The translations under genes were made by a program, and so were the position numbers. Below the pieces are notes generated by a model. That model did not search any database and had not been told where the DNA came from. It was given only the letters and a program-made list of their open reading frames with translations. A DNA stretch of 62,635 nt, filler included, from Kipferlia bialata (lineage: Eukaryota), in the NCBI GenBank assembly GCA_003568945.1. It is 5 parts of 5 records of this genome, joined end to end, with 100 filler letters (N's around TTAATTAATTAA, not from the genome) between each part and the next. Parts side by side here need not be neighbours in the genome. Positions count along the whole stretch, not along the records: positions 27,453 to 41,068 come from BDIP01000926.1; 4 more parts are not named here. The stretch is one strand, 5' to 3'. Positions within the stretch are counted from its first letter, which is position 1; each line of letters opens with the position of its first letter. Positions 615 to 62,635 of the stretch are shown here, piece after piece.

Positions 615-651
<37 letters not shown>

Positions 652-13610: not shown

Positions 13611-13628
13611 CTGGGGTGGGGGGGGGGG

Positions 13629-13734: not shown

Positions 13735-16700
13735 ATGTCTGAGACTGGCCAAGGCACTCCCAGTCACACAGGGTAGGGGTATATGTATATATATATATAT
13801 ATATATATAGTGTTTCATGCATATCTGGTGGTGTCTTACCTACAATGGCAGCATGAGCAGCCAATGCGCTCCCACCATCACTGACCCCCAGTGGCTGATG
13901 GCTGTGTCAACCCTCATGCTGCACCCATCGAGGGCCTGGAGAAGGTATATATATCTCCAAAGGACGTGCTCTACCTATTTTCATATGGGTGGATACCAAT
14001 AATTATTCAAATACCCCTTTACATGTATACTCACATTTTCACCTCAGGTTGAGCAGTATCTGTGCCACCTTCTGCTGGCTCTTATACTCTGATGTGTGTA
14101 CTACATATGTATATATATGCATAAATATATATTTATACCTATTGTCGTACCCTCACCCCAGGTTGAGCAGTATCTGTGCCACCTTCTGCTGGCACTGAGG
14201 GCCACACACACTGCAGAGGGCATGGTGCCACTACTGAGAAAGGTTAGTATTTACAAAGACTAAGGATACAGTATATTTGTATACATATTTATATATACTA
14301 TTCCTCACAGCTCACACCAGGCCCTGCAGGCCCCAGTGCAGTCCAGGACCAAGACCCTCCCTCACCCTGTGGCACTGGTCACAGCACGCATCACGGCACT
14401 GACATCAACAACAGCCACAGAGGGAGAGGCAGAGGAGGAGGGTGCCGCAACCTCCTTTGCTGACGCGTTGGCCAGTGCACTGTGCACAGAGATTGATACA
14501 GGTGCATATATGTGTATATGTGTATGTATATATGTATATATAGATGTGTGATGCGTCAACTGTATCACACTGAGACTGACGCATAGACTGATGCTGATAC
14601 TGGTACTGAAATTGACACAGGTGCATATATGTGTTAGTTGTATCCACCGTCTATATGACTTTAGACACTAGACTGACACCAGCCTGCACTCTAGCCAGAG
14701 AGTCAGCCAGGGGCAGTGCCACCGATAGAGTCAACTGTAGACCAGCTGTGTCTGACCCCCTGTCCCGTATATGCGGCATCCTCTCCGCAGCTGTCTCTCC
14801 CTCGGTCTCAGTGTCACTGGCACAGGCATGCCTCACTCTATTAGAGATGCCATGCCCCAAGCACCCGGTGGCACTACTGAGGTTGGTATATATATATATA
14901 GATAGATATATATTATATTGGTATACTATATATACTCTTGGAGATACCATGCCCCANNNNNNNNNTATTATATTGGTATACTATATATACTCTTGGAGAT
15001 ACCATGCCCCAAGCACCCGGCACTACTGAGTGTGGGTGCATGTATATGTTTCTGGGAAAGATGTGGTATGTGAGATATTAAGATATTAACTGATTCTGAT
15101 TCTCAGGTCTGCCTCCCTCTGCGTGTCCAACTGTGCATCGGCACCAATGTTCGCAGACAGCAAGGTATTGATATGTCGCAATGTATATGCATATATATGT
15201 ATCTGCTATGGCACCCTGACTCCGAGGGGGACTGACTAGCCCTGTCTGTCTGTGTTGTGATGAACCATTCGCATATATATGTATATATATATATACATGT
15301 GTATGTATGTATATATATACATGCCGACTCTAGGCATTGGCTGACATGTCTGTCTGTGGTGCCAACCATACATATAATGCATTTGTTAATACTCCACTAT
15401 ATCCCCTCTCATGTATTATACAGACTGAGTCCTTTATCCTCTAACCCCAGTCCCTGACCGCCCTGTCTGTGTGTGGTGCCAACCTTCTGGTCTGTATGGC
15501 AGACAGTAGCCCACACTTAGTCATACCAGGTTTGTACTTACCCAGTAGTAGTATAGAGTGTATACGTCTACTGTTGCAGTAAACATATACATCTAGTGCA
15601 CCTTCCATACATATTGGAGAGATACTATCTTCCTTTCCCACCCACCCCAGAGCTCCTAGCCGAGTCCAGCCGTGTTGTGTCTGCATACACACAGGCACAC
15701 AGTGAGGGAGAGAGAGAGAGAGAGATGGTGGCCAGGGTGTACAGGGCAGCATTCGGGGCAGGGCTCAAGCACTCAGCTCAGCAGGTATATTATAGCATCT
15801 CCACTATGACATCGAGAGATGTCTTCTATTATCTACCTTTGAATTCATGTCATCTGACCTTCTAGGTCCGTCGCTTTGCCCTCAATGAGATTGCCCTTCT
15901 CCACTCAGTGGCAGACACTAAGATTGAGGGGCTCCTCTCAGCCAGGTATGTACACTTTGTAATACTCAGGTTTCTACAGGACTACCTCCTTGCAGTTTCC
16001 ACTCATCTCACGTAGTGATTTAGTTTATACTTCATCACGGGCTTCCCCCTAATCCCTAGGTATGTGCAGGACTACCTCCCTGTGTATTGGTGTATTACAT
16101 ATGTTCCATCATTACTATCCCCCTAACCCCCCAGGTTTGTGCAGGACTACCTGCTTGTTCAATGCCACATATAGTATACAGATGAATATAGTTTCAGCAA
16201 GACCATTATCCTTACATCCAGGTTTGTGCAGGACTACCTCCTTGTCTCCATCCAGGAGCACAGTATCGGTGTCCCTGCCCATGTTGCAGAGTGCAGAGAG
16301 GCATTCGAGAGGAGGGAGATGTTCAGACAGTTCCCAGAGTCAGGTAGTGTATATTTAGAAATACTATTTTCACATTTCTGCTATCCTTCCTCAACTCCAT
16401 AGTGCGGGAGATGACTATTCGTGCCGTTCTAATGTGACTCCCACTTCATTGTCATGCTGAAGTGCGTTTTTACCCCCAGGCAGTGTGCTGGATGAGTCTG
16501 AGCCTGAGGGTGTGTATGAGGGAATGAGGACAACTAGGTATGGGGGTGGTGTCAAGGTATTAACAATAATTATATATATGTGTGTGGATGTAACCTCAGT
16601 GCCTTTGTCGAGTCCATTGTGTCTGGCGTCCGTAAGCGTGTCAACAAGGCCCCCCATGACCCATGCAGTGTGGGAGGGGGGGCAGACAGAACAGCACCCT

Positions 16701-19700
16701 GCCTCGATGACCTCCACTCAAAGTATGTTCGATATTGATTCATATAGGATTTCTCCAGATACTCTGTTTACTCAACGTACGCTATTGGGTTATGCGCTCA
16801 CATGTGTATATCCACATCCTCTCACCCCCCCAGGACCCTTGACCGCCTCATCAGAGATGTCACAAAGTGCATCATCGCTCAGTCACTCAAGGTATTTGCA
16901 GTTGTAGATATACTGGAGTCCAACCACTAAGCACATAGTATTGTCACCTCACCCCTTCAAGTCTTTGACACTGCTGTCTAGTCCTACTTTTCATGAAGAT
17001 ATGTAGACGTCTACCAATTCTGACACCAAAAGGTCTTTGACGCCGCTGTCTCCCTTGGCTCCAAGACATTCTCCCCCGCCCTGTGTTTCTTTGGCAGCGA
17101 GAGGGCACTTCTGCTGTCCCTGTCGGCATCTCTGTACCTGTCAATGACACCAGAGGGGTTGTACGAAGGTACAGACAGCGCAGTCAGTATATATATCCTA
17201 CTCTACTCTCCATTTACATATATATATACAGCCTCACCCCCTAGCCATGTCTGTCCCTGAGACACTATCAGCTATTCAGTGCATCATTACTACCATTGCT
17301 ACCTACTCATTACTCACCCCCTAGCCATGTCTGGGCCTGATGGCGAGGCAGGCCCTGTCTGGATACACGAGAGACAGGTATATTTATTTTCCCTATATAT
17401 TGGGAACAGATACCCATATATCCGTCAGTGTGTAGTCTTAGTCTCATTGTCCTTACCCCTTCAGGTCCTTGTGAGCACCCTGTCCCTGTCATGTGTGTAT
17501 GTATATATACTGATACTGATACTACTCCATACATTATAATGCATACACATTGGTTGCTTGTCTAACCCTCCAGGTCCTAGTTGGCACCCTGTCCCTGTCC
17601 ATGCTGTCCTGTGGGTCAGCATCAGACGCTCAGGTAGGAAGATACTCAGCACAGAGTGGACATATACTATTTCACTTAATCAGCATCAGACGCTAAGGTG
17701 GGGAGAGGGAGTGTCTGATAATCTGTCAAGAGTGGAAATGACTCTAATAGCCTTAATCACTGGACTGTGATGCCAGGTGGCAGTATTAATTAATATCCCG
17801 CCGCATGACCTTCTCACCCATCTCCCTATGTGTATATATCCCTCCTCACCCCTAGCTGGACTATCAGTCCCTCCTCCACTCCGCCTCTCGTGTCATGTCT
17901 GTCCCCAAGCCCCCCTTCTCGGCCAGCGACAGAGTCTATGTGGTATCCATGTACTGTGCCACCCTAGTCAAGTCCATGTCCACACACCTAGCCCTGGGGG
18001 GTGAGGTGGTGCCTATGCTGCTGGAGTCACTGGGTATGCTACCTGTACCGGCATGTGCCCTGGTACTGAGGGAGTTGAGACGCTCTCTCCTCACTGCACC
18101 TGAGCATATTAAGGGTGTAGATGTATCTCACGCTGCCCTGATGGCTGCCATCCTAGGCTCCCTATCCTTAGACACCCAGTCCCCTCTGGAGCTGTCTGTC
18201 CTGGCAGCTCTCTCTCCCTCCCCCATCCCCATACCCATATCCCCCACTAATGATACCTTCCAGACCCTTGTCTCTGCAGTTGGGTACGGTGTCCCAGAGA
18301 CACTAGGTGATAGAGTCAGACAGGGTGTGATGATGGCACTTAAGGGTGTGGAGGGATGCCCTCTCTCCATAGTCTCCCATGTGCATCAGATGTCATCCCT
18401 GACTGATACAGACATTGAGGGGCTAGATGAGTGTGTGTCTAGTGCATCTCTTGGCAGTGTGGAGCAGAGAGCTGCCCTGACCCTAGTATGTGCACTGAAT
18501 GGGCAGGAGAGGCATGTCAACTTCGCAAAGGAGCAGGTGCGTTGTTGTCTCACTCTGGTATAGATACCAGGTGTGTTTGTGTGTTCTAACCTCCAGATCC
18601 CTGCCCTCCTCCCCCTCCTCGACCCCAGTCAGCCACTCCCAATGCTGCTAGTAGGTGGGGATCGGTACTCTACTATAGTGTTAGAATGGCAATGCCTACA
18701 GTATCAGTGCATTAGTGTTCATTGATACACTGATACTCACCTCCAGGCAAGGCCCTGAGGCACCTGGGTACCCTGCCCTCCCCCCTGCCCCCTCTGCCCA
18801 TGCCCAAGACACTGGAAGAGGCCATACCTGTATTCACACTGTGCGTCAGTCTGTGTCTGGCATGTGCCACAGTGGATGCAAGGTATTAATATACATATAT
18901 ATATCATACTTGTATATATATATATATATATATATACATATATGAATGTATATATATATAGATGTGTCAGTGTGTCAGTCTGGCATGTGCCACGGTGGAT
19001 GCTAGATATATATTTATATATCATACACTACTCATATATATTTGTATATATAGGTGCGTATACGTATATATATATCAGTGTCAGTCTGTGTCTGGCATGT
19101 GTCATTAGTGGATGCCAGGTACATACATTGTACTGCAAGAGTATGTGTTCTCTCACTCTGTCCCGTTCTGACCCCTCAGGGATGGATCCAACCTGTGTGT
19201 GGCATATGTGGAGAAGGGTGAGTATTGGACACACACCTACATGTTTGCGTTTACATACTGGTTGTATCATGGATTGACACTTCTGACTAAATACTCCCAT
19301 ACTTCCCCTCATCCCAGCCCTTGCCATCGGTGTCAAGTACAAGCGTCGCTTTGCATCCACCCTCAGGTATATGGTAATTTCACATTATTCAGATGTCAGA
19401 GAATCGTGTCTATCTATGGTATGTAGTATTACTTTTATAGTACAGCAATTGGTGACATACCCTTACATGTAGGAGAGGGGTGGGTGAGATCCTTGGCTCC
19501 AGGGACTTCCTCCTGGCAGCCACAAGGAGTGAGACAGTCAGAGGTATGTATACACTGTATATCATACATGAATTCTGTATACTGACACTATTTCAGTCAT
19601 TGTGTGGAATAGTTGCAACAAGGAGTGAGACAGTCAGAGGTGTGTATATGTGTAAATGGTAGATATAGATGAGTATCATTCTCTTCATCTCACCCACAGC

Positions 19701-22700
19701 TTCCTATGTCTCCCTGTGCACCAGCGCCCTATCATATTCTTCTTTATTCTTCTAGTCTCTTTCTCCGATATATATATAGACATATGTGTGTGTATTAGTA
19801 TGGATACATTTGTGTCTCACTCCCAGCTTCCTATGTCTCTCTGTGCACCAGTGCCCTGTCTGATGCTGTCAACCACCTGTCCAGTGTGCATCCCTCACTC
19901 ATGCCGGTATTGGAGGTATGTGGAATAATAAGTGATGTGTGTGTATTTCACACACATATAGTAGTGTTCTCAAACACATATTCTATGCCTCTCACCCCTA
20001 GACCCTCTCTGCCATGCGTCAGTCCGAGGCCGAGGAGTGTCTGCCCACTGTACTACCCCTGGTGCTCAGCTGCATATTCATGACAGTCGACACAGAGAGG
20101 TATCGGCTCTGGATATTGTATGTATGTAACATAGTTCTCTTCTTATAGAATATTGTGAACTATGCGACAGTAGACACGAGTCATTAATTATAGGCGCTGT
20201 ATAATATATGTACACAGTGTGTATATACATGTACTCTCACCCCCAGTGGTCTCCCCCCTGCCCCCATGTTGGCTGGAGCTGTCCAGTCTCTGGATGATAT
20301 ATATTGTATATCCATATATATATATATATATATATATAGATAGATAGATATTGAATGATAGATATACTCTAACCTAAGTGGTCTGCCTCCTGCCCCCATG
20401 CTGGCTGGTGCTGTCCAGTCCCTAGATGAGGCATCTCTAGTGGGGCCAGCAGAGGCACCAATCCTGTCCACATACGCACTCAGGCTCAAGGTAATCATAT
20501 ATATATGTATATATATATATACAATGTCTCTGTACGTACATGTCTGAGGCACCGATCCTGTCCACATACGCACTCAGGCTGAAGGTAATCATATATATAT
20601 GTATATTTATATATACAATGTCTCTGTACGTATATGTCTGAGGCACCAATCCTGTCCACATACGCACTCAGGCTCAAGATGTGCAGATGTATATATATAT
20701 ATATATATATATATACATTGTACATTATTGCATTTCCCATGTCTCTATATGCAGAGGCACCAATCCTGTCCACATACGCACTCAGGCTCAAGGTAATGCA
20801 TGTATTTGTATATATATTACTGCAAATTACCAAGTGTATTTGTACATCGGATCTTTAGGCCATCTCTGCCCTACCTATGCCTATAGATATTCATTATAGA
20901 ACAACACAGTCTTGTACTATCGGGGTACTATCTCACTCTCAGGCCGTCTCTGCCCTGCACCGCATTGTGTCCATTGTATATATCTATCTATATATGTTTA
21001 TTATGTTATAGTGTATGTGGATACATATATACTGCACATGTCTCACTCTCAGGCAGTCTCTGCCCTGCACCGTATTGTGTCCAATGTCCAATGTTTATTG
21101 TATATATTATATTATAGTGTATGTGTATTCATAGACTGTACATGTCTCATCCCCAGGCCGTCTCTGCCCTCCACCGCATTGTGTCCAATGCCCCTCCCTC
21201 CGTGGCATCTAGTGTGTTTGTGATGGGGGTGGACATCATGAACGCTAGAGATACAGGTATGTATATGATACATGTAGGAGTCATGTCCTTCTTTGTGTCC
21301 ATCATATTACGTTTAACTCCAGCTGCCTCTGGGGCTCTCTCCCCCCTCTCTGCCTCCTGTCCCGTTGGCATATTCAACACAGTCTGTCCACAGGCCATCA
21401 TGCAGCCAGACAAGAAGGTAGAGTAGTGTATGTGTTGAAATATTATAATGATATATAGATGTATATTCAAAGGTAATAATATTGTAGCCAGACAAGAAGG
21501 TGTTACACGCATGTAGATACGAATGTATTAGATATATAGATGAATGTTTATAGATAATAATAATAGATGAATCTATGTGTATACATCTAACCCCCAGGCC
21601 TCCACGTGGGGTGCCCCTGCCCGTGGTCTGCAGCACATCCAGCGGTGCATGAGGATGGTTGTATCCCATGCCACGCCCACCCCTGCCCTGGGTGCTGCCC
21701 TGTCCTCTCTCTTTGGATCACTGGTGGGGACAGGCTGGGCCAGGGAGACTAGGTATAGATGGGTATATGTATATATACAATAGTATATACATAATTGTAG
21801 TTGATTATATGTATCGGTGTCTATATCTCTATATCACTGGTGGGTACAACAGGGTGGGTCATTGTTACTACAGTATTATCGTATTATGCTCTCACCCCCT
21901 CATGGAGACTGTGGAGCAGACCATCACTCTTCATATATATCCATGAATAGATGATTGTATGGGGATGTATTACTACAGTATCATACTATGCTCTCACCCC
22001 CCAGGGAGACTGTGGAGCAGACCATCGCGGCTGCCCTCCTCAGATACCCTGACCCCCATGCTGCACTGTACACTCTGTTCAAGGAGGTATGGATGGATGT
22101 ATATGTGTGTATATATATATGTGTGTTTATATATATATGTATATATATATAGACAGAGAGAGAGAAAGTACATATATCCCTGACCCCCTTTGCTACACTC
22201 TGTCCAAGGAGGTATGGGTGGATTTATATGTACTCACCCTCAACGTCATATATATTATCACTCTTGGGCAATGTGGGCCATCCTCTAGACACATATCAGC
22301 ATGGATAGTGATGAATACATTGACACCTATGTATATTCCTTCTCCCACCCCCAGGGCAACGTGGGACATGATCTAGACACGTATCAGCTAACATATATAT
22401 ATATATGTATATATATATGTATATATATATGTATATATACATATTCCTTCTCTCACCCCAGGGCAACGTGGGCCATGCCCTGGGTGCAGGTGGCACCCCA
22501 TACGCACAGGCCAGCTGCGTCATAGCAGGTATGTATGTATATATGTGAGTGTGTGTGTGAGAGAGAGAGAGACGTTGTCCCCCCCTTACCCCAGGTCTTG
22601 TCACCTTCCAGACTGTGGTCCTAAAGGGTCAAGACGCCATGTCCACCGTTGACTTGGTCAGACTCATATCCCCTGCCCTACTGGCCGGTACCCACTCTGT

Positions 22701-25700
22701 CAGACCAGCAGCATTTGCAGTGGTGCTACAGCTGCACGAGGCTGCGGTGGCTCAGGTGGGTATAATGGAGTGATATACGATAGTAGTCTCATGGCACTAT
22801 ATCGGCATGTTAAATGGGTTTCCTTTGTCTATTCACCTCTTACCTCTTCTCTCACTCCTAGGAGGCTGCCAACCCCACAGTGGGAGGGGGCATGACCAAG
22901 CCTGAGAGGTGGCTCCAGGTATGGCATATGTAGTAGTGATACTCAATGAAGCCGGTTATTCCATTGCTATTGCATAGCATCCATCTAACCCCCTAGGCCG
23001 TCGGCCTGTCCTAGTATCAGTCAATCTGAGTGTATATATTATGTAATCCATCTAACCCCCTAGGCCGTCGGCCTGTCCCCCGAGATGGTTCAGACCATGG
23101 ACATGCACTTCAGAGTCACATCCGCACAGGCAAAGTTCAGGTATTGAATGTATATCATCTAAAGATGTAAGAGGGGTGTGTTCTGTATATAGACAGAGTA
23201 TTGTGGCTTTAGAGTCACCTCCGCACAGGCTAAGTTCAGGTGGGTATTGAACGTAGTATATTTCTTCTTTTACTAGGAAATTGAAAACGGCTATTTGGGG
23301 TATGTATGTTGATTAAGAGTGAAGATTCCATGCACTCACCCCAGGGAGCTGTTCCGTGTCATGACCCCAGCCGAGGGGATGCAACACGCATGTCTGCCAG
23401 GTATCAATGGTGATGGGTATATTGAATCTACCATGTCTATGATATCGTTCTAACTTCATTTTGTTGATCGTATCATTACCATGCATGTCTGCTAGGTATC
23501 AATGGTGATGGGTATAGTGGATGATATGGCATTGCCACACCCCACTGATTCTAGTTGCACTTCTTACCTATACGTGTCAGTTTTGACACCTCATTCACCC
23601 GAGACCCTAATACTGCCTACACCGTGTCCTATATATATATGTATATATACTATCCTAGTCACTAGTTAAACACATCCAGTATATATATCATAACCAACCC
23701 CAGACCCCAATGCTGCCTACACCGTCTCCGTGTCCGACCTCTACCACTCAGCTGACAAGGGAGGGGTGGCTGCGTTCAAGACAGCAGCAGCACTCGGAAA
23801 GTGAGTTCGGATCATCCTCTCTCTCTAACGATATACCACCCTCCCCTGCCCCCTTCCTTCTCTCTCTCTCTATATGTAAATATACATATCTGTATCCTCA
23901 CCCCCCAGGGCCTATGACCTCCTTGGCGAGCTGAGGAACAGAGAGCTGGAGGTGGTGGCAGCGGCTGCAAAGGTACATATCTAGTGTCTACATATGACAT
24001 ATACATTCATCATGGATATGTATGTATTCATATGCAGAGCTGGAGGTGGTGGCAGCGGCTGCAAAGGTATTCATATATACTTGGAAATTGTTGAAATTGC
24101 AATGTATGACTGATAGGTCTCTTCTAGTTGAGAGTTATCATACGTAGGATCATCACTGCATATGTCATTGTTGCTATATCAGACATTGATTCTCACCCCC
24201 CAGGCCGCCAATGTGGAGAGAGAGGCCCTCCTGAGACAAAAGATTGAGAAGGACAGGGAGAGAGAGGTCAATGTCCTAGTTGCACCCGAGAGCCCACCTG
24301 CACAGAGACCGGCAGAGGGAGAGGGAGAGAGAGAGAGAGAGAGAGAGGCTGTCCCTGAGAAGGAGGGTGATACTGAGATGGTGGTCAGGCAGAGGAAGAT
24401 TATGGTGGAGGCGCCCACCGAGAAGGTATCGTGTAGTTTTGTGCCTATCGACATATATATGCTTGTATTGTCTCACCTCTAGGCTGCCGCTGAGATGTTG
24501 GCTGTGTCCACCCCTGAGACTGATGAGACATCATCCACCAAGGAGTGTATTGTGTGTGCCTCTCTGCTGGACAAGCCACCCAACCTGGGGGGACTCGCTA
24601 GATCAGGTGAGGGATGATACTTGTAGAATACTCGAGTGTTTACTATCTGAAGTATGGGTATATAGTCATGGATGTGTTGAATATGACTGTACATGTTAAC
24701 TCCTGCTGAGATCTTTGGCATACCATGTAAGTATCATCTACCCGACTCGGCTAGCACAAATGTCGTACCTATACATATGTATATATATACCTGTTAACCC
24801 CAGCTGAGATCTTTGGCATGTCGAGCCTTGTCCTTCCATCCCTGTCAGTCACAGGGGACCCGGTGTTTAAGGTATATATAGAGTGGCTTAATCATATGTA
24901 TTGTATCGTATTCTTACTGGAATCCAGTCACAGGGGACCCGGTCTTCAATATGGGGCATGCCCAATGACACGTGTATTCTAGATGCTTACTCACCTATGT
25001 TCATACTCACCCTAGGCCCTGAGTGTGTCTGCCCACCTTCACGTACCACTGCAGGCTGTCCCCCCTAGTGACCTTAGGCCATGGCTCAGACAGAAGCAGA
25101 GGGAGGGGTATGCCCTGGTGGCACTGGAGCAGGTGTGGTACATATTATCCATAAGTATAGATGTTCAATTTATCATATACTGTCTTGATACTTTGTTTCT
25201 GTATGCCCTGGTGGCTCTGGAGCAGGTGGGTGTCACCGGTGTACCTTAGTATTTGTTGTTGTGTTGTATCTGTTGGGCGTATAGATGCCACCCATATCAC
25301 CATCACCTTACCCCAGTGTGAGACCAGTGTGTCCCTCGAGAGTGCCTCCCTTCCAGCTAGATGTGTCATAGTGCTAGGCAATGAGAGAGAGGGAGCACCA
25401 GACGACATACTGGGTAGGGTCTACTACATATATATCGCTACCTATACATCCCATTGTGTATATAGCATTGCAGTCTTCCTCCTTGACTCCTAGGCATGTC
25501 TGACCTCCATGTCCCCCTTGATCCATCTCTCTCTCTCTCTATCTATCTCTCTCTTTCTCTCTCCCTCTCACCCCTAGGCATGTGTGATCTCCATGTTGAG
25601 ATCCCCCAGCTCGGATGCATCAGGTGGGTACATTGCAGTATTATATCAATACATAACTGTTTCAATATATTCATATAGATTTATGGTTAGTGGTCTCTAT

Positions 25701-26062
25701 CACTATCCAGCTCGGATGCATCATGTGGGCGACGGATACTCTACATGGTTTCAATACAATATGTATTTTCCCTCATCAGTCACCCTCTGAATATACACAC
25801 TGATGTTATCCCTCTCTAGCTATACTATTGTTTTTAGTCCCCCCCCCCCCTGACAACTATTATACCTCTTTCCCCAGGTCTCTGAATGTGCACACTGCAG
25901 CTATATATATACACATATAGATTTGTATATATATATATATAGTATATATATATAGTATTAGTATATATATATATATATCTTTCCCCTCACCTTAGGTCTC
26001 TGAATGTGCACACTGCGGCTGTCCTCCTAGAGTGGAGGTGGATATCCCAGCACAAGCTGTAG
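13735..26062 (+). CDS. TARBP1: TARBP1/Trm3-type tRNA (guanosine-18 2'-O)-methyltransferase: long helical N-terminus plus C-terminal SpoU domain; 5' end probably off contig
   Basis: Spliced C-terminus: ECIVCASLLDKPPNLGGLARS|AEIFGMSSLVLPSLSVTGDPVFK|ALSVSAHLHVP..GYALVALEQ|CETSVSLESASLPARCVIVLGNEREGAPDDIL|GMCDLHVEIPQLGCIR|SLNVHTAAVLLEWRWISQHKL*. All three SpoU motifs are present. About 11 kb of upstream same-strand exons fit the large Trm3/TARBP1 size. Confidence 0.88.
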
Positions 26063-27352: not shown

Positions 27353-27452
27353 NNNNNNNNNNNNNNNNNNNNNNNNNNNNNNNNNNNNNNNNNNNNTTAA
27401 TTAATTAANNNNNNNNNNNNNNNNNNNNNNNNNNNNNNNNNNNNNNNNNNNN
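27353..27452. other. Artificial contig linker
   Basis: N44-TTAATTAATTAA-N44. Confidence 0.97.
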
Positions 27453-27735
27453 CCAGGGAGGAGAGGTATCACCATTAGTAGGGCCTGGTGGGGGGGGGGG
27501 GGAGAGGAGATGTCACTAGTCTGGAGATGTCTCTGTATGACACCAGGTTCTGATGGGGATGAGATTGTGGTCTGGTGTTTGTGTTTCCCATATGTCTGTT
27601 GTATATGTTGGTTCGTTGGTGTGTCTTCTTGTTGGTGGTGCACACTTGCTTGACCGATTGAGTTTGTGTTCATGCATATATGTCTCCACTACTCTGTCTG
27701 GCCAGAGTTCATTTCTCTCATACCTGACCCCTCAG

Positions 27736-30700
27736 CTTGGTTTAGAAGAGAGACATGCAGGATCTGACTCTGGTGGCATGCTCGGATACACAGCCACTGA
27801 CCCTGAAAGACACCCCCACCCCCACTCCTCCGAGGACAGGGACGTCAGGGTGCGCCTGGCAGAGCTGTGCACCCTGTGGAGCATAGCGCAGACGCCATTC
27901 TACTACGTCACAACTAGGTAACGCTGCTTATCTTTATATATGTACGGGTAGACTCCATCCTACCCTGGCACAACAGGTGGGGGCATATGAGGGTGCCAGA
28001 TCTAACGACGCCGACAATTATGTGTCCTCTCTGAATTGCTATGAGCACCATGTCTCTGTGTTCCCTAGCATACCTGTACCATACCCTTGTGACCCCTCAC
28101 CCAGGGCTGAGCTGACCGAGGTTGTGTCCTTCCTGGCCATGCACTCTGCCATCGGCATCGACCTCGAGCACTCCTCCCTCAGCTACCACGGCACGGTGTC
28201 CCTCATCCAGGTGGGGTAATAGGTTATATGTATATATATACTGTATATACAGGTGGGGTTAAGGGTTGTGCCAGTGATCACCTTCTGTATGAACTCTGCC
28301 AATACAGACAGGCTGTGTAGACCTCCCTCCCTCACCCCGCAGATCTCTGTCCCTGGCTATGACTTTGTGCTGGATGCATATGCCCTGTACCCCCACATGC
28401 ATCTGCTCAGAGGTATCATTGACACTCTCACACAGGATATTGGTGACACTGGCAGTGGCGTGGATACATATTTGTGTGTCAATGAGTGTTTATCATGCAT
28501 ATATATATTGGTCAGAACGTGCAGTACCTGCAATCACAAGGGCGATATCTGTTCAGAGTTTGTTGCAATTGTACACAATTGCCATGCATGTATGTGCGTC
28601 TTCACATCCTCCTACTTCTGCCAGGTGTGTTTTCCGACCCCACCATCATCAAGGTGCTACATGGGTCCGACAATGACATCCTCTGGCTCATGAGGGACTT
28701 CAGACTCTACATAGGTGTGTATAGACATGTCTCTCATTCCATGTATGGGTTTGTATATGTACCAAGATGGGTGTGGGGTCAATACCTCAGACTCTAGATA
28801 GGAATGAACTATATCAAGCGCTTGTACAGAGTGCTCATTTAAGAATGTATATATGCGACAGGGAGGTTGGCATCATATAGCAGTGTCTGGTTAGGCAACA
28901 CCATCCTGTCCCACTGTGGTACCTGTTTACTTGTCAATCCTCCCCCCATCCATATATCCATGCATTCTGTAACACTGGTCCCGACCCTGACCCCAGTGAA
29001 CCTGTTTGACACGGGTAGGGCCGCCAGGGTGCTTAGGAAGGGGGCCGGCCTGGGGTCACTGCTGAGGGAGTGCTTTGGGATACAGATGGACAAGGAGCAG
29101 CAGGTGGGGACACACGGTGCATATACATATACACTGCAACTCAGTCACTGGCTCTACTGATGGATACACGTCTCTGGTACTGTCCACCTACCCCCCTTCT
29201 TACCCCAGACGTCAGACTGGTCCCTCCGGCCTCTGTTGCCAGTCCAACTGTTCTATGCCAGGTACCAACCCTACATATGGCACTTCAACCCGTGTATACT
29301 AACCGTCTGAGTGTGTATCCCCCTACCTCATACAGGTGTGACACACACTGGCTGCTGCCTCTGTTCCACCGGCTGACTGCCCTCCTGGCAGAGAGGGGCG
29401 GGTATGCCGAGGAGCAGGCATGGCTACACAGCAGACAGGTACCAGTGGTAGTGGCTATGTGTATGTGTAGAAGTATATAGTGAAGTATATATATATAGGG
29501 TATGGCTACACAGCAGACAGGTACCAGTGATAGNNTGAAGTATATATATATAGGGTATGGCTACACAGCAGACAGGTACCAGTGATAGTGTCAGTGGATA
29601 TCAAGTATAGAGTGGTCTTGATCTGCGAGGTCGCATGTCGTGACTGGAAATTATATATATATATCTATATTCACAAGTATGTGAAGTTCCCTGTTTCTAC
29701 GTGGTGACTGAGTATTCCATTCCGTCTCTTTCCGCCTCTGACCCTAGGTGTCGCTGAAGGTGTTTAGACCCACACCCCCAGACAATACTCGCCATCTACC
29801 CCTCCTGGCAGATACCTACGAGGGAGACATGGACCGACACCGCAGGGGCAGGGGATCCCATGTGCACACACCGCGTATGGGGGTGCGGGGCCAAGCGTCT
29901 GTGTCACCTGTAGCCCAGGCACTCCTTCTGCACCTCACGGCATATGTGGACACACTAGGCGTCTACCTCAATCTGTCGCCAGGTATGTATGATTTAAATG
30001 TCGTCGCGCCCTAGTGTGGACCTCCCATAGCCTCCGTCTTCATGTAGCCTCTCTCTCCTCTCTACCCCCAGACACTGTCTGTGGCGGACGGGACCTGGCC
30101 CGATTGGCTCTGTCCCTCTCTGTCATCCCACCCTCCGCCATCTCGAGGGAGAGTGTCCTGTTCGGCCTCTCCCTCAGTGCCCCCCCTCTCATAGCTGCCA
30201 ATGCCGCAGAGATAGCCCTGCTGGCCCAAAGGGTGCTGCAGTACAGAGCCCCCCCGCCACACACCCAGCCACACACCCAGCCACACCACGGCCATGGTCA
30301 AGTATACCCCCCTGGGGAGAGGGTGAGGGAGAGAGACAGTGGAAGGGAGAGCGCTATGAGAGACAGAGCCCCCTCCTACGGTAACACCCGGCCCCCCTCC
30401 CAGCCCAGTGGGGGTTGGGGGGCGAGAGAGGTTATGGCACCGCCTGGGGGTCCCCCACCCCCACCCCAACCCCAATCCCAGTACCAGTACCAGTATCCAG
30501 CCACCAACCCAGGTATCAGTAGTATGTTTGTCACTCTAAGCTGCTCGATACCTCCTCTCCCTCCACTCTTACCCCAGGAGTGCACTGTCTGGATGACCTG
30601 TACCATGCGGTGGGGTGGGACATGCCCCAGGACAATAGAGGGGGGTGGGACGGCAGGGGGAGAGACAGGGAGAGGGAGAGAGCGAGGGAGGAGTGGCAGT

Positions 30701-31811
30701 GGGAGAGAGAGGATGCTGCGGAGTCAGATGGAGAGACAGACGGTGTAACTGCTCTCAGTAGTGGAGTCGACATCTTTGCAAGGTGAGGCGTTGTGTCATT
30801 ACTCATGTAACGATACACCAGAGTGAATGGGGGACTGTGTTGCAGAATATGGATTGGATTCTGTTGTGTTACCCCCTTACTCATTGCAGGGCTCTAGACC
30901 AGAAGCTCATCAAGCAGAGTTCTAGGGACAAGCACGGTCCCCCCCAGAGTGGGAGGGGCAAGGAGATCTTCAGACAGTTTGGCGATGCCTCGTTACATGG
31001 GGCGGCACCTGGATACAGAATAGGTGGGGTAGACCTAACGAATGCTGATGTATATAGTTGCCCTACTGTAATATACTGTACTGTATATAGAGGTATGTGT
31101 CGTGCCCTACTGTAATATACTGTACTGTATATAGAGGTATGTGTCGTGGGTGGGTGGCCCTTGAGTCAAAGATCTTGATGCTGCTAATACTTCAACTTGC
31201 ATACACCACATCCCCCTCTTCCCCCAGGTGACATAGGCCCAGGATCTAAGGTCTCAGCCGTCACAGGAAACTCCCTGTCTGTTTCCGTCGAGTTTGCGTC
31301 TTCTGTAGAGGGAATGTCTGTGCTGGTATGTGACATAAGTAATATGACATAACTTGGCATAGTCTTGTAGTTGTATATAGCTTTACACAACTAATCTTGG
31401 TAAATATCCGGAAACATCGTTGTCTCCTGAATCACAGCTCATCGCGTTGGTGTTTTCTGTGACACTTGTGTAGTTAGGCCTTTAGATTTTCGTGTCTTCC
31501 TCTTCCCCTCTGTCTCTGAGTCTAACCCCCAGGACGTGCTGCACCAGACAGGTATCGACCAGGTGCTGGGGCGGAAGGAGAGGGAGGACATCGCCCACAT
31601 TGGGGCAGGCAGAGACAAGGAGGGGCCTAGCCGCAGGGAGAGGGAGAGGAACAGACGAGAGGCCAGGGGGAGTAAGGGGAGGGAGAGAGACGGTGATGGC
31701 AGTCGAGATAGCCGATCTCGCTCCTCTGGTCATAGAAATAGTCACCCCCGCGACAGGTCTGGGGAATCGAACCCAGGGAGAAGGCGAGGTTATGATGACC
31801 CAAGATTGTAG
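27736..31811 (+). CDS. RRP6: Exosome-associated DEDDy 3'-5' exoribonuclease Rrp6/EXOSC10-like; true start not resolved
   Basis: Spliced: AIGIDLEHSSLSYHGTVSLIQ|ISVPGYDFVLDAYAL..|GVFSDPTIIKVLHGSDNDILWLMRDFRLYI|VNLFDTGRAARVL..MDKEQQ|TSDWSLRPLLPVQLFYAR|CDTHWLL. Exo I, II and III motifs are intact. Ends in a low-complexity R/G/S-rich exon with a stop at 31811. Confidence 0.9.
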
Positions 31812-37615: not shown

Positions 37616-40373
37616 ATGTCCGGCACGTCTGGAGCTAGTAAGAGCCGAGCTGTGATTAATGAAATTGAAGAGGTATATATGTACTCTCGTGCTACTGTCA
37701 CATGCGTTCTCGTTGTGTATGCACGCTATTCAGTGTATTCTTACCTATGTGGCTGCAGACTAAGATGATACTGCATCTGCCGTGGTGTCACACTGAGTGA
37801 TACTGGATTGATTGTTGAGTACTCTCTCTCTCTCACCCCTTGATAGTCCTGACTCCATTCCTACCCCCCCCCCCCTTCACTCTCTCTATATTGAGTCTCG
37901 GTGACTGTGTGAGTCTCTCTCTCTCTCCCCCCCTCTCTCTCACTCCTTTCCATCCTGACCCTAGGTCCTTGGCACAGGGTATAGTAGTCAGTATATTCAC
38001 ATACACTCTCTCTCTCTCTTTCTTTATCCATTTATCACTGTATGATCCCATCTCACCCTAGGTCCTTGGCACTGGGTATGACACATCAAATGTCGGTGCT
38101 GGTATGACCAGGTTTAGTGAGGTAATAGCAAATATGTATATGATTGTATACTCTCCACATACCTTTTTGCACTTGGTCTTGCCACCCCTCCCACCGAGAG
38201 GTACTCCTTTGCAATATTGCATATATATATATAGATATACCAGACACATATGTATCTGGCTGTCTGTCCCTACATTCATATCTGTTTACCCTAGTCCTTT
38301 GCGGCCCCTCCCACTGAGAGGGCAAGGGGCAGAGAGAGAGACAGAGACGCATATGGGACAAGAGGGCCCCTGAGGGGAGACTACAGGTATGCGCTTTATA
38401 TACACCCAACATGTTGTTTCCTTCTGTATTTGTATGTGATGTGTATTGTTTTATCTTTCCATTAACGTCCAGAGGCGACCTCACTCCACAGATGGGCAGA
38501 GACACAGCTCCTAGGTATATATACATATCCACACTATATTGGTGTATGTATGTCCTGTATGTATGTATATACTATAGTATTAGACACACTCCACGTATGG
38601 GCAGAGACACAGCTCCTTGGTAGCATAGAAGTATATAATTGATATTATCAGATAGGTACATAATTATTATTAATAATGAATATAGTATAGAATATATACC
38701 CACAGATGTCTCTTTGTAATCAACACTTTCAGGGCCTCCATAGTAGCCCTAGACCGTCTCTCTCTCTCTCAAACGCTCCCTATATACCTGTCATACTCAT
38801 TAGTATCTAATAATGCAGAACTTCCATCCTTCTCTCTCTTCTTCTTCTCTCTTCCTTCTTCTTCCTCTTCCCTCTTTCTCTCTAAGCCCTCAATCTACTG
38901 TATCTGTCTTTCCCCAAATTCCAGGGCATCCACGCTGACCTGGATGGTCTGTCCCTCATCCTATCACTACTATACTATATAATTATGCAGTTATATGTAT
39001 TCATGTATATATGCATGTACATACTCATATGTATCTCATTCCAGGGCATCTACGCTAACTCTGGACAGTCTGTCCCACAACCAGTCATTCGCTCAGACAA
39101 GGTATAGACATATGAATATATATATACGTAAGGGATGTAGGATGTATATGGATGTTTGTGTATATAGTGTGTCTGTCCCACAACCAGTCCTTTGCTCAGA
39201 CAAGGTATGAATAGTATATATATATATATATACGTATATACATTTCATTCGTATGTAAGATAGAATAGTGATAATGTGTGTGAGTAGATGTGTCTGTCCC
39301 ACAACCAGTCATTTGCCCAGACAAGGTATGAATGTATATTTGGTTATGTATATATTCATGTTTCTCACCTAGGATGAAACAGTCGAATACCGACTGAGAG
39401 AAGGAGTGAGGTTTCATTATATAAGTGTGTATCTATATTCTCTTTTGTTCCTTATACCCCAGAGGTGCCAGAGAGAGGTCCGAGTCATTCGAAGACGCAG
39501 CAAACAAGGTATTATTCTGTATATACTTATCTATATAGGTCCTATAATAATAGGAAGACGCCGCAAACAAGGTATTGGACTATTTTGGTATTGACTGATA
39601 AGTATGTATCGATGCTTTCATGTAATATATATATATACTATATATCGTAGATAGTCTCTCTTCATATAATGACTTCAGGCCATATCCATAGTGGATGCTG
39701 TCCTATCCATACCACCTAGGCGCATATGATATGCATTGTATTGTATATATCTTTATCTATATGTATTTAGGTACTAATATACCAGGCCATATCCATAGTA
39801 GATGCTGTCCTGTCCATATCACCTAGTTATTACATGCATTGTATTATGTATATACATATATATCTGAGTGAATATAGATATATATACTAATATATACTAA
39901 TATACCAGGCCATATCTATTGTGGATGCCGTCCTGTCCATACCCCCAGACACCTATATATATAGTATGTCATACGTATCAAATATTTACATGTATATATT
40001 CTAACATGTCAGGCCATATCCATATTAGATGCCGTCCTGTCCATACCCCCTAGGCGCATACACATTCCTATGTATATGTTGTCTATGTATACTTACAGCA
40101 TATTTACAATTCCATGTACTAATATGTAGGCCATATCCATCGTTGATGCCGTCCTGTCCATACCACCGAGGCGCATACACATTCCTATGTATATGTGTGT
40201 ATACTTACAACATATTAACATATTCATACAATAATGTCATCACATATATACAGTATATATGAATTAGCATATATGTACTAATACACCAGGCCATCTCCAT
40301 AGTAGATGCTGTCCTGTCCATACCACCCAGACGCATATCCAAGGACCAGATCAGAGATATGCTGAATGTATAG
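37616..40373 (+). CDS. Small multi-exon uncharacterised protein (~145-160 aa) with echo-filled introns
   Basis: MSGTSGASKSRAVINEIEE|VLGTGYDTSNVGAGMTRFSE|SFAAPPTER..GDYR|GDLTPQMGRDTAPR|ASTLTLDSLSHNQSFAQTR|GARERSESFEDAANK|AISIVDAVLSIPPRRISKDQIRDMLNV*. Splice phases are consistent, and the frame is independently supported by synonymous differences in the echoes. Confidence 0.7.
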
Positions 40374-40431
40374 AGAGGGGGAGAGAGAGAGATTATCCAA
40401 GGACCAGATCAGAGACATGCTCAATGTGTAG
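39679..40431 (+). repeat. Array of five partial copies of the last exon's 5' end plus one post-stop copy of its 3' end
   Basis: AG|GCCATATCCATAGTNGATGCNGTCCTNTCCATA at 39679, 39786, 39909, 40013 and 40130. The real exon is 40290-40373 and the tail copy is 40394-40431. Confidence 0.92.
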
Positions 40432-41068
40432 AGAGAGAGAGAGAGAGAGAGACAGAGTATGCTCGTCCATTATTCTCAAAGAGTCCAATATAATGTGTAA
40501 GATAGGAGGGGGAGGGATAATTGAAAATCTTTCAGTTGTCTCTTGCTTGGAGCAGTTGGTATTTCACTGTTATTGCAGTAACCCATCAAGAAGATCTTTG
40601 CTGGCGAGTGAGTTCGATTCTCACAGGAGACATTTATCAGAACATATACTACACAGTTGCGAGTGGGAAGTGTGTGGAGTGTATGAGAAGCTACACCCTC
40701 AGAGTTTTTGTAAACACGTCTCGGAGGTACAAGCTCACTATACTTGTGAACACGTATTGAATATATATGTATCAACCACTCTCTGTCTCATGGAGCCAGT
40801 CAGCAATGGGAGGAAGTGACAAAGCTGCACCATATAGTATGTTATATATATTTTGTGTCTCTGCACACAAAAGTGTGAGACCCTGTCTGCCAAGAAAACT
40901 TCTCTGGACCCTTAGTCAATACCTCACTGCCAAGGCCCTTGGCCCAAGGGGCTCTGGTTAGGGAAATAATCTGATTCACTCAGTATCTGCTATGTCCTTC
41001 AGGAAGGCCAGTCCAACTGTGGTGTCTGACCACTGAGCAATGAAAGGCCTAGCTCCCTGCGCTACCAC

Positions 41069-54771: not shown

Positions 54772-54871
54772 NNNNNNNNNNNNNNNNNNNNNNNNNNNNN
54801 NNNNNNNNNNNNNNNTTAATTAATTAANNNNNNNNNNNNNNNNNNNNNNNNNNNNNNNNNNNNNNNNNNNN
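54772..54871. other. Artificial contig linker
   Basis: N44-TTAATTAATTAA-N44. Confidence 0.97.
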
Positions 54872-54888
54872 CGGTGTTTTTACCCCCG

Positions 54889-54920
<32 letters not shown>

Positions 54921-54935
54921 TGGTCTAACACTCAG

Positions 54936-57900
54936 ATACTACCTCCTTGGTCTATCCATACCATCACCAGATGTCGACAACGGGGTGACCATGAAGGTAA
55001 GACATACTCTCTCTATTCAAGTACCTAGTGAGCATTCCTCTGGATACTCCCGATGCTGCCTTCACACTGTAACATTCTTCTCTTCTTGTTCTCCCTCCTC
55101 TAACCTCTCTAACTCTAGGCCCACCTGGGTGCCTGGCTTACCACCATCCCCCCTGCCGCATGTGCGGCCCTGCCCTTATTACTACCGGCCAGTGACACCT
55201 CTCTCCCCCTCTCTGTTGTGCTGTCCTTAGTGGTCCATGCAGTATTCATAGCGCTGGCTCTCCTCCTAACTAGGCTGCCTCGGAACTTCATATCGATGTC
55301 AGCAAGAGAGAGCCTGTCAATAGCAATGTTTCCCATAAAGCCGAGCGCGTTGCTGCTGCTTCGCGATGGGTGTCTCTCGGCCATATTCCAGGTGCATAAT
55401 ACTCCCTCCATCCACTCTCCTCCTTCTCTCTCATTTCCTCACCCAAGTCTCTCTTTGCTCTGGTTGTGACTGGGGCCCTTACCCCCGACTCACTCCTCTC
55501 TCTCTCTCTGGTGGCTACTGCAGATCGAGAGAGCATCACGTCTGCCCTCTCCCTCTCCACTCTTGCTGTGCTAGTGGTGGTCTGGCAGGCCATGAACGTG
55601 TCAGTGTCTCTGATACTCGGTATTCACCCTGAGAGGTGTGAAACTGCTGAAATATGGTCCTCCTACGGTGGAGGAGTATGTATATTTGTAGGTAGCCAAC
55701 GTCTAACTCCCAGGAACTCTTCTAGCATCACACCTAGCGTGGACTCTGCCCTTTCCAAGGTATGTATACTAATGTGTTTTCGCATGTTTATAGTGGTGTG
55801 ATATATCCTACCCAACCCTCTTCTTTTCCTCACCACATGCCTTTTGGTTCCTTGCCGTGGCCCTGGGCTCCCTCGCTCTTGACACAGCAGTGCCTCTATG
55901 CTGGTTCCTGGTTGTATACAGTGCCGGAGTGCTAGCCCCCCTCAGTGCATTTATCCCAGGTGTGAAGGCCAGACCACTGCCTTATACTGTATATACTCCA
56001 TCTCCTCACGCCAGATGTGCTGGAACTCCTTCAGTTCTATGTCACAGGCACTGTCGTCCCAGCGGCCCTCTCCCTCTCTCCATCGAGGCTTGCACTACCT
56101 CTTCTCAAGGTTGTATCAGCTGCCACTCCCCTTATTGCCTGGGGATATGCCTCTAAGGCTGAGTCCGGCACCACCCCATGGCTCCAGATGGCCGCAGGTC
56201 TCTCTGTTATCATCTCCCTCCTGGTGGTGCCCCTCTTGGGTACATTCCTTCTGCCCAGTAAGCGTGGACCTGGCTTCAACGTAGCATGGGTCATACACGT
56301 GGCTGTGGTCGTTGTCCCCACTGCAGTACTCTTCCTAGACAGCCAGGGGGACTCTCTCTCTGACATAGCCTCGCTAGTGTCTCTAGGTGCCAATAGTGCA
56401 GTCATGTGGGTGCTACTACTGGTCCTGGTAGTCCTGACTGGGATTAGCGGCCCTGTCCCCTTCCGTACACACACGGTGCGGCAGAAGGGAGGGGCGGTCT
56501 CCAATACCAGGAGCATCGTCCTCAAGATAGGTGAGAATTGTCTAAGCCATGCACGTGTATACATACCATTGGTATATTGTCTTGCAGCAAGTATTCCTCC
56601 GCGAATCTCACTCCCAGGCTCTGTGGTAGCGGTTCTCTTCAACCTGGTCCTGTCCACAGACGGGGCCTCTGGCAGTGGCGTGGAGTCAGTCTTTAGTAGG
56701 CTTGTCCTGGCTGATGCCTCACCCTTATCCAGTGCATCAGACATGGCACTCACCCTGGCGTGTCTGGTCGCTGTGACAAGGTGTGTCTCTATACCGTGTT
56801 GGATGTTAATAAGGTATTATACATCTTTGTATTGACCATACCAACATGCAGGTGTCTCCCCCTGGCCATATCCGATCCAGCCAGACTCATGGTGCACACA
56901 GCTGTGGGGTCTATTATTGGACAGGTGTGTGATATTTTTCTGCATTCACAGGTATGAGGGGAAGGAATATGTAGATCATTACTCACCCCAGACTGGTGTG
57001 CTCCAGAGCCTCTCCTCCTCGATCCCATCCACCACTCTGGTCAACACATTAGTGTCAGAGTGTGTCGATATCGCAGCTAGGAGACTCTTCGATGCATTCA
57101 GGCTCTGTGTGTGCCTCTGGAAGAGTGCCCTACACCCCACGGAGGACCCTGTCATAGACGCCGGGAAGTCCTCACCTGGGGCTCTCAGTGTAGGTACTAT
57201 AGCACATGTAATTGTATATATATTTGTATATATAGTCTAGTTTCACTGTTGACCCCAGGTAGCCCGTACCGCCGCACCAGCAACAGGGAGGGTGAGAGCA
57301 GGAGAGAGAGAGGAAGGGGAGGGTCTGGTGGCCCTGTCTGGGCAGCACCAGTCCTAGTTATAATCATCATAGCGTCACCCGTATACGTGCCCTTCTGTGC
57401 CATATTTGCCATCCTAGGTTGCCCCTTGCGGCCTCTGTTTGGGACACCCGTGTTGGTGCCCGGTTACAGGTATACTCCTCAATATATCTCTCAATATTTG
57501 GTTCTATTGAGATCTCTCCCCTTCTATACTGACCAAAGGCGTGGTCGCTCCTTCCTCAACGCCACTCCCCCTCCCGTGGCCCTCTCTATCTCCAAGAAGG
57601 GTGCCTCTCCCTCTCCCTCCACGGTCTCTGGGGCATCATACTCTGTCCTGGTCAGTAGCCTCATAGGCGACAGGAGGTTCAGGAGGTGGGTATCTTCATG
57701 CTTCCATATTTCCACATTTTATAGTCTTTAGTTTCTCACATACCAGGATCCTTCGCACTCAGGTTGGAGGTGCCGGTGTGCTTGGAGTCAGTGGTATGCT
57801 AGGTGGGTAGTTATAGGTGGCAATACCTACTCCCTTCCACACCAAGTCTCACTCTCAGGTGGTGTTGGTGGTGTTGCTCCCAAGGATGTTGTGCTATGTA

Positions 57901-57993
57901 TGCATGACAAGGACCTAGTCATGCTCAGAGTGATGGGCACCACAGGAGGGGGGTACCTCTGCCAGTGTAGGGCACTGGAGCTGCAGGTGTGAC

Positions 57994-58028
<35 letters not shown>

Positions 58029-59100
58029 ATATGTGGTCTAATCCCTAGGAGACTTCGTGCCACAGGCGAGAGAGGCGTATCCTCACCGAGTACCTGGACA
58101 GCGTCTGTGCAGGTATTTCAACCCATTTCTAACCTAGTTTGTTGTACCCCCATTCTCATCCTTAGGCTCTGGGTCTGACGGTGTCCCGGGTCCAGTCGGA
58201 TCATATGGGAGATGGGGTGAGTGCGATTGTCACTCAAGCGCCGCTGTTCTAATACAGCCGTGACACAATGTATTTCTCTTCCTCACACCAGGCGTTGCCA
58301 GGCCATGCGGTGTGGTATCAGTGCCCTGTTTTAGCTACAGGTAAGCTGGCATCAACTATCTTCCGGTTCTGCATATATTTCGCGTCTCATCCTCACCCCA
58401 GCAAGTACCGCCTGCTAGGTGTCTTTGACAGTGTGGATGTCAGGAGGGAGTTCCCCGCCCTGCTGCTGCGTGTCCTGACCCATGTCATCAGATACAGATC
58501 GGGTGGGGGAGGCTGTTGCTACAGTAGTTGTCTCTGTAGTATTTCCAACATCCTCTAGATTGTACCCTTACCCCAGACTCTTCCTTTGTCCGCATCCTTA
58601 TGCGCTATGTGGCCTGTCTGGATATCCCAGAGGACACTCTGCAGGTATGAGGCATATTGCATACGCACAATGCTCACTCTCCCATACATACACTCTCTCT
58701 TTCTACTCTATACAGTTATGTCTCACCCCTTAGACCCTTTCTCAGCAGCACAGCACGGCAGGCGAGGTCAGGGAGAGAGACTCGATGGGAAGCAGGTATG
58801 GGATATATATCTACTGAGATGTACAGCCTGTGTACAAATATGTATACTTACATATACATTCATACCCACCTTAGGGAGGCCATGACCATGGTGAGACCAG
58901 ATAGTAGACCAGCAGCCCATAACCCAGGGGCAGTGGATGCCGAGGAAGGTATGTATATTGTGTTCTATAGTATACCCCTCAAACACTCTCTCTCCCGTTC
59001 TCTCTGACCCTCCAGCTGCAGACGATGCCCTGAGGGGTATGTCCAACTCAGCCAGGGGGGCGCCATACTCACCAGTCCTCGCAAGGTATATACATACTAC

Positions 59101-59133
<33 letters not shown>

Positions 59134-60708: not shown

Positions 60709-60892
60709 TCATTGATTGATTGATCAGTATTGATTCTGATCAGTATTGATTCTTGGAGAAGAGTCTTTGGCTTTGGATATGAGTGCTTCCAGTTTTGTTG
60801 TTCTGTACCATTAGATGTATTGCGTTTAGGAGTAGTTGGCAGTGTTTCACAATAGATGCTCAGTGTATTGGGAGGACTTTGCCGGTCTATTG

Positions 60893-61902: not shown

Positions 61903-62054
61903 CCTTGTATGATAGAGAGTGCATCTGAGTCAGACACTGATACTCTGTCTACACCCTTGAGTCGGTTTTTCGTTCACGTTTTTGGTGTAAAAGGGTTTGT
62001 TCCTGGCCTCAGACGTAGCTGGTCGTCTGTCTCTCAGCCCTGAGGTGTCCCGCG
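61903..62054. promoter_or_regulatory. Putative compact bidirectional promoter
   Basis: 152 bp separates the divergent ATGs of the L7Ae-like gene (61902, minus) and the WW gene (62055, plus). A T-rich core lies at 61965-62000. Confidence 0.45.
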
Positions 62055-62513: not shown

Positions 62514-62589
62514 GTGGGTGGGTGTGATGGATGTGGGTTAGGGCAGCAGTCTGTAATAAGTTAGGGTTCCAGTAGAGACACGTCCCCCC

Positions 62590-62630
<41 letters not shown>

Positions 62631-62635
62631 ACAAA

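What the first reader, a model, noticed from the sequence alone, without database searches (positions are those of the whole stretch)
40394..40431. Echo downstream of the stop codon is still purely synonymous
SEEN: after the stop at 40373 and a GA-rich run, SKDQIRDMLNV* is repeated with three changes, all silent (gat/gac, ctg/ctc, gta/gtg), including the TAG and the following GA repeat. It has no consensus branch point/acceptor. INFERENCE: ordinary alternative splicing cannot explain the constraint here. This favours DNA-level capture of another functional allele or recurrent conversion.
Basis: partly seen in the sequence, partly recalled or inferred. Interest (0 to 1): 0.75.

Follow-up and report, generated by a model that had tools for sequence, protein, structure and literature searches.

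The report
Introns storing exon ends of alleles
In the protist Kipferlia, two thirds of the introns examined carry short copies of the neighbouring exon's end that differ mostly at silent positions, and the copy after this stop codon is one of them; they are likely scraps of other working versions of the same gene left by DNA repair, which would make one genome a record of its population's diversity.

Summary
The echo is real: 40394-40431 repeats the last 38 nt of an exon, stop included, with three silent changes. Three of three silent is not significant alone (p about 0.08), and the window's only other post-stop echo has one missense change and a frameshift, no silent one. The finding is one of 84 echoes at 53 exon edges in Kipferlia bialata genes; 40 of 62 introns carry them. 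Spliced RNA contigs use the outermost splice sites and keep this echo in the 3' UTR, so it is not coding. The family is strongly silent-biased (pN/pS 0.20, bootstrap 0.13-0.30; neutral decay simulated 0.45-0.47). Silent divergence is a uniform 18%, unrelated to decay and symmetric in base composition, whereas missense changes lean GC to AT in the echo. This fits capture from other functional alleles during break repair (0.5), ahead of exchange with indirect selection (0.25). No second strain was found, so the donor alleles are inferred, and the unalignable intron flanks are not fully explained.

The parts
40394..40431 (+). Post-stop echo: copy of the last 38 nt of the final exon with TAG, three silent changes; lies in the 3' UTR
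   Evidence: RNA? contig of depth 46 placed 40288-40419
40374..40393 (+). 20-nt GA-rich spacer, shorter than all 76 intronic spacers measured (minimum 30, next 45)
40290..40373 (+). Functional last exon (AISIV...MLNV*), acceptor used in RNA
   Evidence: joint 39508>40290, depth 54
39679..40177 (+). Five acceptor-side echoes of the last exon (39679, 39786, 39909, 40013, 40130), each behind an AG; 23 silent, 4 missense, 1 indel against the exon
   Evidence: skipped by the RNA joint
37616..40373 (+). Host gene, 7 exons, 145 aa, no known family; all six introns supported by RNA joints; 13 echoes
38587..39571 (+). Donor-side echoes 38587-38619, 39171-39204, 39292-39325, 39554-39571 and acceptor-side echo 38925-38961 of the same gene
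13894..26062 (+). KIPB_004361 (SpoU methylase domain), 41 introns, 34 echoes, 41 silent and 22 missense differences; frames from the database protein
48008..54317 (-). Hand-built 14-exon gene, all GT-AG, open frame, 25 intronic echoes
47857..47893 (-). Second post-stop echo (37 nt, period 152): 0 silent, 1 missense, one 1-nt deletion

Best explanation
The stretch is a non-coding copy of the last exon's end, one of 84 exon-end copies in this window, and was likely captured from a different functional allele of the same gene during repair of a DNA break. Shown: the copies sit next to their exon, end at the edge of coding sequence (splice site or stop), are skipped or left untranslated in RNA, and differ from the exon at about 18% of silent and 3.5% of replacement sites. 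Inferred: a break in an intron or UTR is repaired from a diverged homologue; the invading end copies the donor's intron and 15-50 nt of the next conserved exon piece, then is joined to the unclipped other end instead of annealing to it, leaving the donor's exon end beside the resident one. Silent differences would be allelic divergence already filtered by selection in the donor; missense changes and indels would be neutral decay since capture. Intronic copies survive because the first donor and last acceptor are used; a copy behind a stop codon is harmless anyway.
For: pN/pS 0.20 (109 silent, 64 missense, 2414 sites), bootstrap 0.13-0.30 over 53 arrays; 0.16 in the two genes with database- or RNA-backed frames; simulated neutral echo plus purified exon with the same detection gives 0.45-0.47, lowest 0.26 in 600 runs. 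Variants private to one echo: 28 silent, 26 missense against about 0.28 expected, p<0.001; only 7 differences are shared by all echoes of an array, so the exon lineage is not the source. Silent divergence is equal in echoes without and with decay (0.185, 0.174), rho 0.04, no overdispersion; the age-driven null misses these, a capture model tuned on pS and pN fits them. Missense differences lean GC to AT in the echo 33:14 (p 0.008), silent ones 46:37 (p 0.38). 4 of 4 three-state columns are silent, suggesting more than two sources. The innermost intron has normal length (median 104 against 103), spacers are shorter. Echo splice dinucleotides are not better kept than replacement sites. No paralogue seen. 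K. bialata lacks NHEJ and Rad51A and lists Spo11, four Dmc1 entries, PolQ, XPF (PMC8516963); Dmc1 stabilises mismatched joints (PMC6719624 abstract).
Against: No donor allele was observed: no second strain in metagenomes, no variant letters in the DNA run. Intron flanks align in only 18 of 81 echo-exon pairs and fall to background within 6-20 nt, more than 18% silent divergence predicts; this needs fast intron turnover between alleles, which is assumed. Missense changes are commoner far from the splice site (11 against 24 by thirds, p 0.04; 4.7% of capture simulations reach this gradient), as indirect selection predicts. The capture simulation had two tuned parameters and its ratio (0.10-0.205) only just covers 0.20. 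Echoes of one array are not independent. Spacers under 45 nt are nearly absent (1 of 76), which random break positions do not predict without selection. 22 of the 62 introns and 37 of the 84 echoes rest on hand-built models or on gene B, whose frames were partly hand-built before RNA confirmed its joints.
Confidence: 0.5

Rival explanations
1. Echoes arise by local tandem duplication and stay coding-compatible because they keep exchanging with the exon (conversion, or deletion between the repeats makes part of the echo the working exon), so missense changes in the echo are purged indirectly.
For: Missense changes rarer near the splice site; exon part can be identical while the flank is unrelated (9 of 11 zero-difference echoes), as conversion limited to the repeat gives; silent bias persists in pairs with homologous flanks.
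Against: Echo GT/AG should then be kept best, but 12 of 82 are changed (8 of 156 letters after dropping four doubly changed, against 3.5%); 10 indels; missense changes look like one-way decay; silent divergence does not vary with decay. By population-genetic argument (my inference) it also needs a huge, very diverse population.
Confidence: 0.25
2. Ordinary splice-junction tandem duplications or minisatellites decaying neutrally; the silent look comes from silent change in the exon plus chance and detection bias.
For: Sufficient for this one echo (p 0.08; head-to-tail 58-nt unit); some arrays are plain head-to-tail copies (10 of 49 echo pairs share flanks); the second post-stop echo shows no silent bias; an earlier scan note on another genome reached this reading (e1-7810567).
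Against: Family ratio 0.20 against 0.45-0.47 simulated with detection; echo-echo ratio 0.21; private variants silent-biased; frame-free phase test 104 of 144 against 84, maximum 96 in 1000 shuffles.
Confidence: 0.1
3. Echoes are used in minor spliced forms (alternative acceptors or last exons) and are under direct selection.
For: 70 of 82 keep GT/AG; the database protein ends in the echo at 39679; RNA contigs break exactly at the AG of echoes 39679 and 40130.
Against: All six listed spliced joints use the outer sites; donor echoes precede acceptor echoes in 9 of 9 introns, so none is framed as an exon; internal echoes are truncated; the post-stop echo follows a stop in the transcript.
Confidence: 0.08
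4. Assembly artefact from merged alleles.
For: Short-read SPAdes assembly (PMC5874029 methods); letters 40420-40463 not checked.
Against: DNA contigs cover 37948-39205 and 39246-40419 with 0 other letters at even depth; RNA contig enters the echo; spacers are unique.
Confidence: 0.02

Closest known systems
Human F7 intron 7 37-bp VNTR (PMC1557585, abstract read)
   Same: Repeat spans an exon-intron boundary; downstream pseudo donors are functional but silent; the most upstream donor is used.
   Different: One locus, donor side, near-identical head-to-tail units. Here 40 of 62 introns, donor, acceptor and stop sides, mostly unrelated spacers, and codon-aware divergence.
Intron gain by tandem duplication of an AG/GT site (PMC3265369 abstract; PMC2891723 passages)
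   Same: Local duplication of exon sequence with splice signals ends up intronic.
   Different: No new intron position arises; the original outer sites are kept and the intron grows.
Double-strand-break footprints and parallel unrelated introns in Daphnia (PMC4202315, passages)
   Same: Break repair leaves direct repeats of exon ends; unrelated intron sequences occur at the same site in different alleles.
   Different: Repeats there are 4-12 bp and ascribed to NHEJ; here 13-51 nt (median 29) with their own splice sites and silent bias, in a lineage reported to lack NHEJ.
Synthesis-dependent strand annealing aborted and closed by end joining (recalled, not from a call)
   Same: Templated copy of donor sequence beyond the break, then a duplication at the junction.
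   Different: Not known to me as a genome-wide source of allelic exon-end archives; junction microhomology could not be tested.

Membership tests
F7-type splice-junction minisatellite | First unit spans an exon-intron boundary | tested here: met
   82 intronic echoes anchored within 6 nt of a splice site, 5 unanchored hits dropped; the post-stop echo is anchored at a stop instead
F7-type splice-junction minisatellite | Pseudo sites silent, most upstream donor used | tested here: met
   RNA joints at 38514, 39101, 39508
F7-type splice-junction minisatellite | Head-to-tail units alike over their whole length | tested here: not met
   flanks align in 18 of 81 echo-exon and 10 of 49 echo-echo pairs; met locally for the 58-nt unit
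F7-type splice-junction minisatellite | Variable copy number between individuals | not testable with these tools
   one sample only
Intron gain by tandem duplication | Duplicated AG/GT pair creates a new intron between the copies | tested here: not met
   RNA joints use the outer original sites; no 58-nt skip
Staggered-break repeats of Daphnia neointrons | Repeat of 4-12 bp at the far end of the intron | tested here: not met
   13-51 nt, inside the intron with own splice site
Mutually exclusive duplicated exons | Each copy has acceptor and donor and appears in mRNA | tested here: not met
   donor echoes before acceptor echoes in 9 of 9 introns; no joint to an echo listed; rare forms are dropped by contigs
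Introners | Introns at different sites share a sequence family | tested here: inconclusive
   45-nt ends of different introns are 0.31-0.42 identical beyond the signals; no genome-wide search
Allele capture by break repair | Echo matches an allele present in the population | not testable with these tools
   no second strain found

The most novel reading that the evidence does not exclude
Kipferlia introns and UTRs are a genome-wide archive of exon ends taken from many other alleles by Dmc1-only, NHEJ-free break repair in a hyperdiverse population (silent diversity about 0.14), tolerated because its reduced spliceosome always picks the outermost sites; one genome then reveals sex or parasex and population diversity, and introns grow and are replaced this way.
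Probability: 0.4. Interest if true: 0.85.

Novelty: new variant of a known kind. Interest (0 to 1): 0.68.

Why it matters
If true it gives a mode of intron growth and turnover on a scale not found in my searches, indirect evidence of recombination between very divergent alleles in a free-living fornicate, and a way to read diversity from one genome. Whatever the origin, skipping five intact nearer acceptors (781 nt against 170) in a genome with roughly 100-nt introns is a natural test of splice-site choice in a reduced spliceosome (87 of 174 proteins, no snRNA candidates; PMC6679479 passages). It also misleads annotation: the database protein ends in an echo.

Tried and rejected
No whole genome held, so no genome-wide census. 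No run on record as RNA; X2 is a guess, though it gives GT-AG joints. Metagenome scans: 0 matches for the last-exon pattern, 333 pattern hits and no relative for the long exon. No database protein for the minus-strand gene, so its model is by hand. Host protein: no Pfam family, no usable Atlas hit. Idea that GTATAG at the stop acts as a donor: no such joint, and the second post-stop echo lacks it. Faster silent change in the exon lineage: rejected (7 shared against 54 private differences). Programmed deletion between repeats: no deletion joint at echoes among the 15 of 20 joints shown; contigs drop rare forms. Contig breaks at echo acceptors are a hint only. The exon at 43157 and exons beyond 42069 and below 45751 were left out because frames were ambiguous; contigs 1-13628 and 54872-62635 and the genes at 27453-31811 were not modelled. 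First pass with looser alignment over-extended and was replaced. Ten paper searches listed no description of these echoes; the genome paper's main text has 0 hits for duplicat, allel, heterozyg; its supplements and subscription journals were not seen. Scan notes: none for this genome.

Full report
Observation. The last exon of a small gene ends SKDQIRDMLNV* at 40338-40373; after a 20-nt GA-rich spacer, 40394-40431 repeats its last 38 nt with three silent changes. A DNA-run contig covers 39246-40419 without other letters; the rest of the echo fell in a stretch the tool skipped. That run may be the window's own source.

Organism and gene. Two window proteins match Kipferlia bialata database proteins (100% for KIPB_004361; KIPB_004363), and the contig lengths given there equal two window segments between linkers. 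The host gene has seven exons (37616-40373, 145 aa); six GT-AG joints in run X2 match all six introns. It has no Pfam family or usable Atlas hit. An X2 contig of depth 46 (background 3-8) starts at the acceptor and continues past the stop into the echo, with no other letters and no skip: the first copy codes, the echo is in the 3' UTR. X2 is RNA by guess, supported by its spliced joints.

The family. A repeat scan showed similar copies across the window. Using the database protein for one gene (41 introns) and hand-built models for five others, I found 84 echoes at 53 exon edges, in 40 of 62 introns on three contigs; five unanchored hits were dropped. Acceptor-side echoes (47) lie upstream of the exon with their own AG; donor-side echoes (35) lie downstream with their own GT; two follow stop codons (2 of 5 gene ends checked). 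Median length is 29 nt, nearest period 100 nt. Donor echoes precede acceptor echoes in 9 of 9 introns with both; the innermost intron has normal length (104 against 103) and spacers are shorter (medians 68 and 79). RNA and the annotation of the long gene use the first donor and last acceptor.

Is the silent bias real? For this echo alone, no: p 0.083 under a neutral echo with a purified exon, and the other post-stop echo has one missense change and a deletion. For the family, yes: 109 silent and 64 missense differences, pN/pS 0.20 (0.13-0.30); distinct variants 90 to 59, p 2.6e-5; simulation with the same detection gives 0.45-0.47; a frame-free test agrees. The bias lies on the echo side: private variants 28 to 26, echo-echo ratio 0.21.

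Two components. Silent divergence is 0.185 in 40 echoes without decay and 0.174 in 44 with it, uncorrelated with missense divergence and not overdispersed. An age-driven model misses the ratio, the correlation, the dispersion and the silent level in undecayed echoes; a model with 0.14 prior silent divergence plus 0.035 decay, tuned on two numbers, covers all seven summaries, the ratio only at its upper edge. Missense changes lean GC to AT in the echo, silent ones are symmetric. All four three-state columns are silent. I read this as sequence that was functional elsewhere until copied, then decayed.

Mechanism (inferred). A break in an intron or UTR is repaired from a diverged allele; the copied strand runs through the donor's intron into the next conserved piece and is joined to the unclipped other end. 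This gives a full inner intron, a truncated spacer and an echo ending where conserved sequence ends, including at a stop. K. bialata is reported to lack NHEJ and Rad51A (PMC8516963 section read) and its table lists Spo11, four Dmc1 entries, PolQ and XPF (supplement rows); Dmc1 stabilises mismatched joints (abstract). No paralogue donor was seen.

Against. No donor allele or second strain was found. Flanks align in only 18 of 81 pairs, less than 18% divergence predicts; Daphnia shows unrelated introns at one site in different alleles (passages), but this is assumed for Kipferlia. Missense changes rise away from the splice site (p 0.04; 4.7% of simulations), which favours exchange with indirect selection; against that rival, echo GT/AG are not better kept than replacement sites and there are 10 indels. 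Arrays are not independent, and part of the set rests on hand-built frames.

Comparison. Closest is the F7 intron 7 minisatellite (abstract; lead from scan note e1-7810567): same silent pseudo sites, but one locus with uniform units. Tandem-duplication intron gain makes a new intron, which does not happen here. Ten searches listed no description of these echoes; the genome paper does not mention duplication or alleles in its main text. Supplements of that paper were not seen.

Verdict. The flagged echo is real but proves little alone; the system it belongs to is real, widespread in the window and unusual. New variant of a known kind, interest 0.68; allele capture 0.5.

Noticed in passing
window 37616-40373: Database protein KIPB_004363 (103 aa) starts in another frame at 38078 and ends PPRRI*, which fits the echo at 39679; RNA joints support a 145-aa product ending at 40373. 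Echoes may mislead annotation widely.
   Followed up: yes
window 39509-40289: The last acceptor (781 nt away) is used although five nearer echoes have AG; suggests exon-definition-like choice in a short-intron genome.
   Followed up: partly
window 39677 and 40128: Low-depth RNA? contigs begin exactly at the AG of two echo acceptors, a hint of rare use; no joint listed.
   Followed up: partly
window 38735-38768: By eye, an old acceptor echo below the detection score whose translation still resembles the exon at 39045 with mostly third-position changes.
   Followed up: no
all modelled introns: Spacers between copies are 45 nt or more in 75 of 76 cases; the post-stop spacer is 20 nt, as if splicing sets the lower bound.
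   Followed up: partly
window 40746: G>A difference in one X2 contig (depth 8) against the window and X1.
   Followed up: no
window 13629-13728, 27353-27452, 41069-41168, 54772-54871: N-flanked linkers join five separate contigs; neighbourhood across them is not real.
   Followed up: yes
window 13894-26062: 1518-aa partial protein with C-terminal SpoU domain, resembling Trm3/TARBP1 (name recalled), 41 introns.
   Followed up: partly
window 29420-29590 and 59131-59243: Further echo-like repeats in genes that were not modelled.
   Followed up: no
window 1667-1811: 16-nt tandem repeat array interrupted by an N gap.
   Followed up: no
window 42017 and 49169 arrays: Most echoes share one amino-acid difference from the exon (Gln for Arg; Ser for Thr), so some replacement differences are allelic or arose in the exon.
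   Followed up: no
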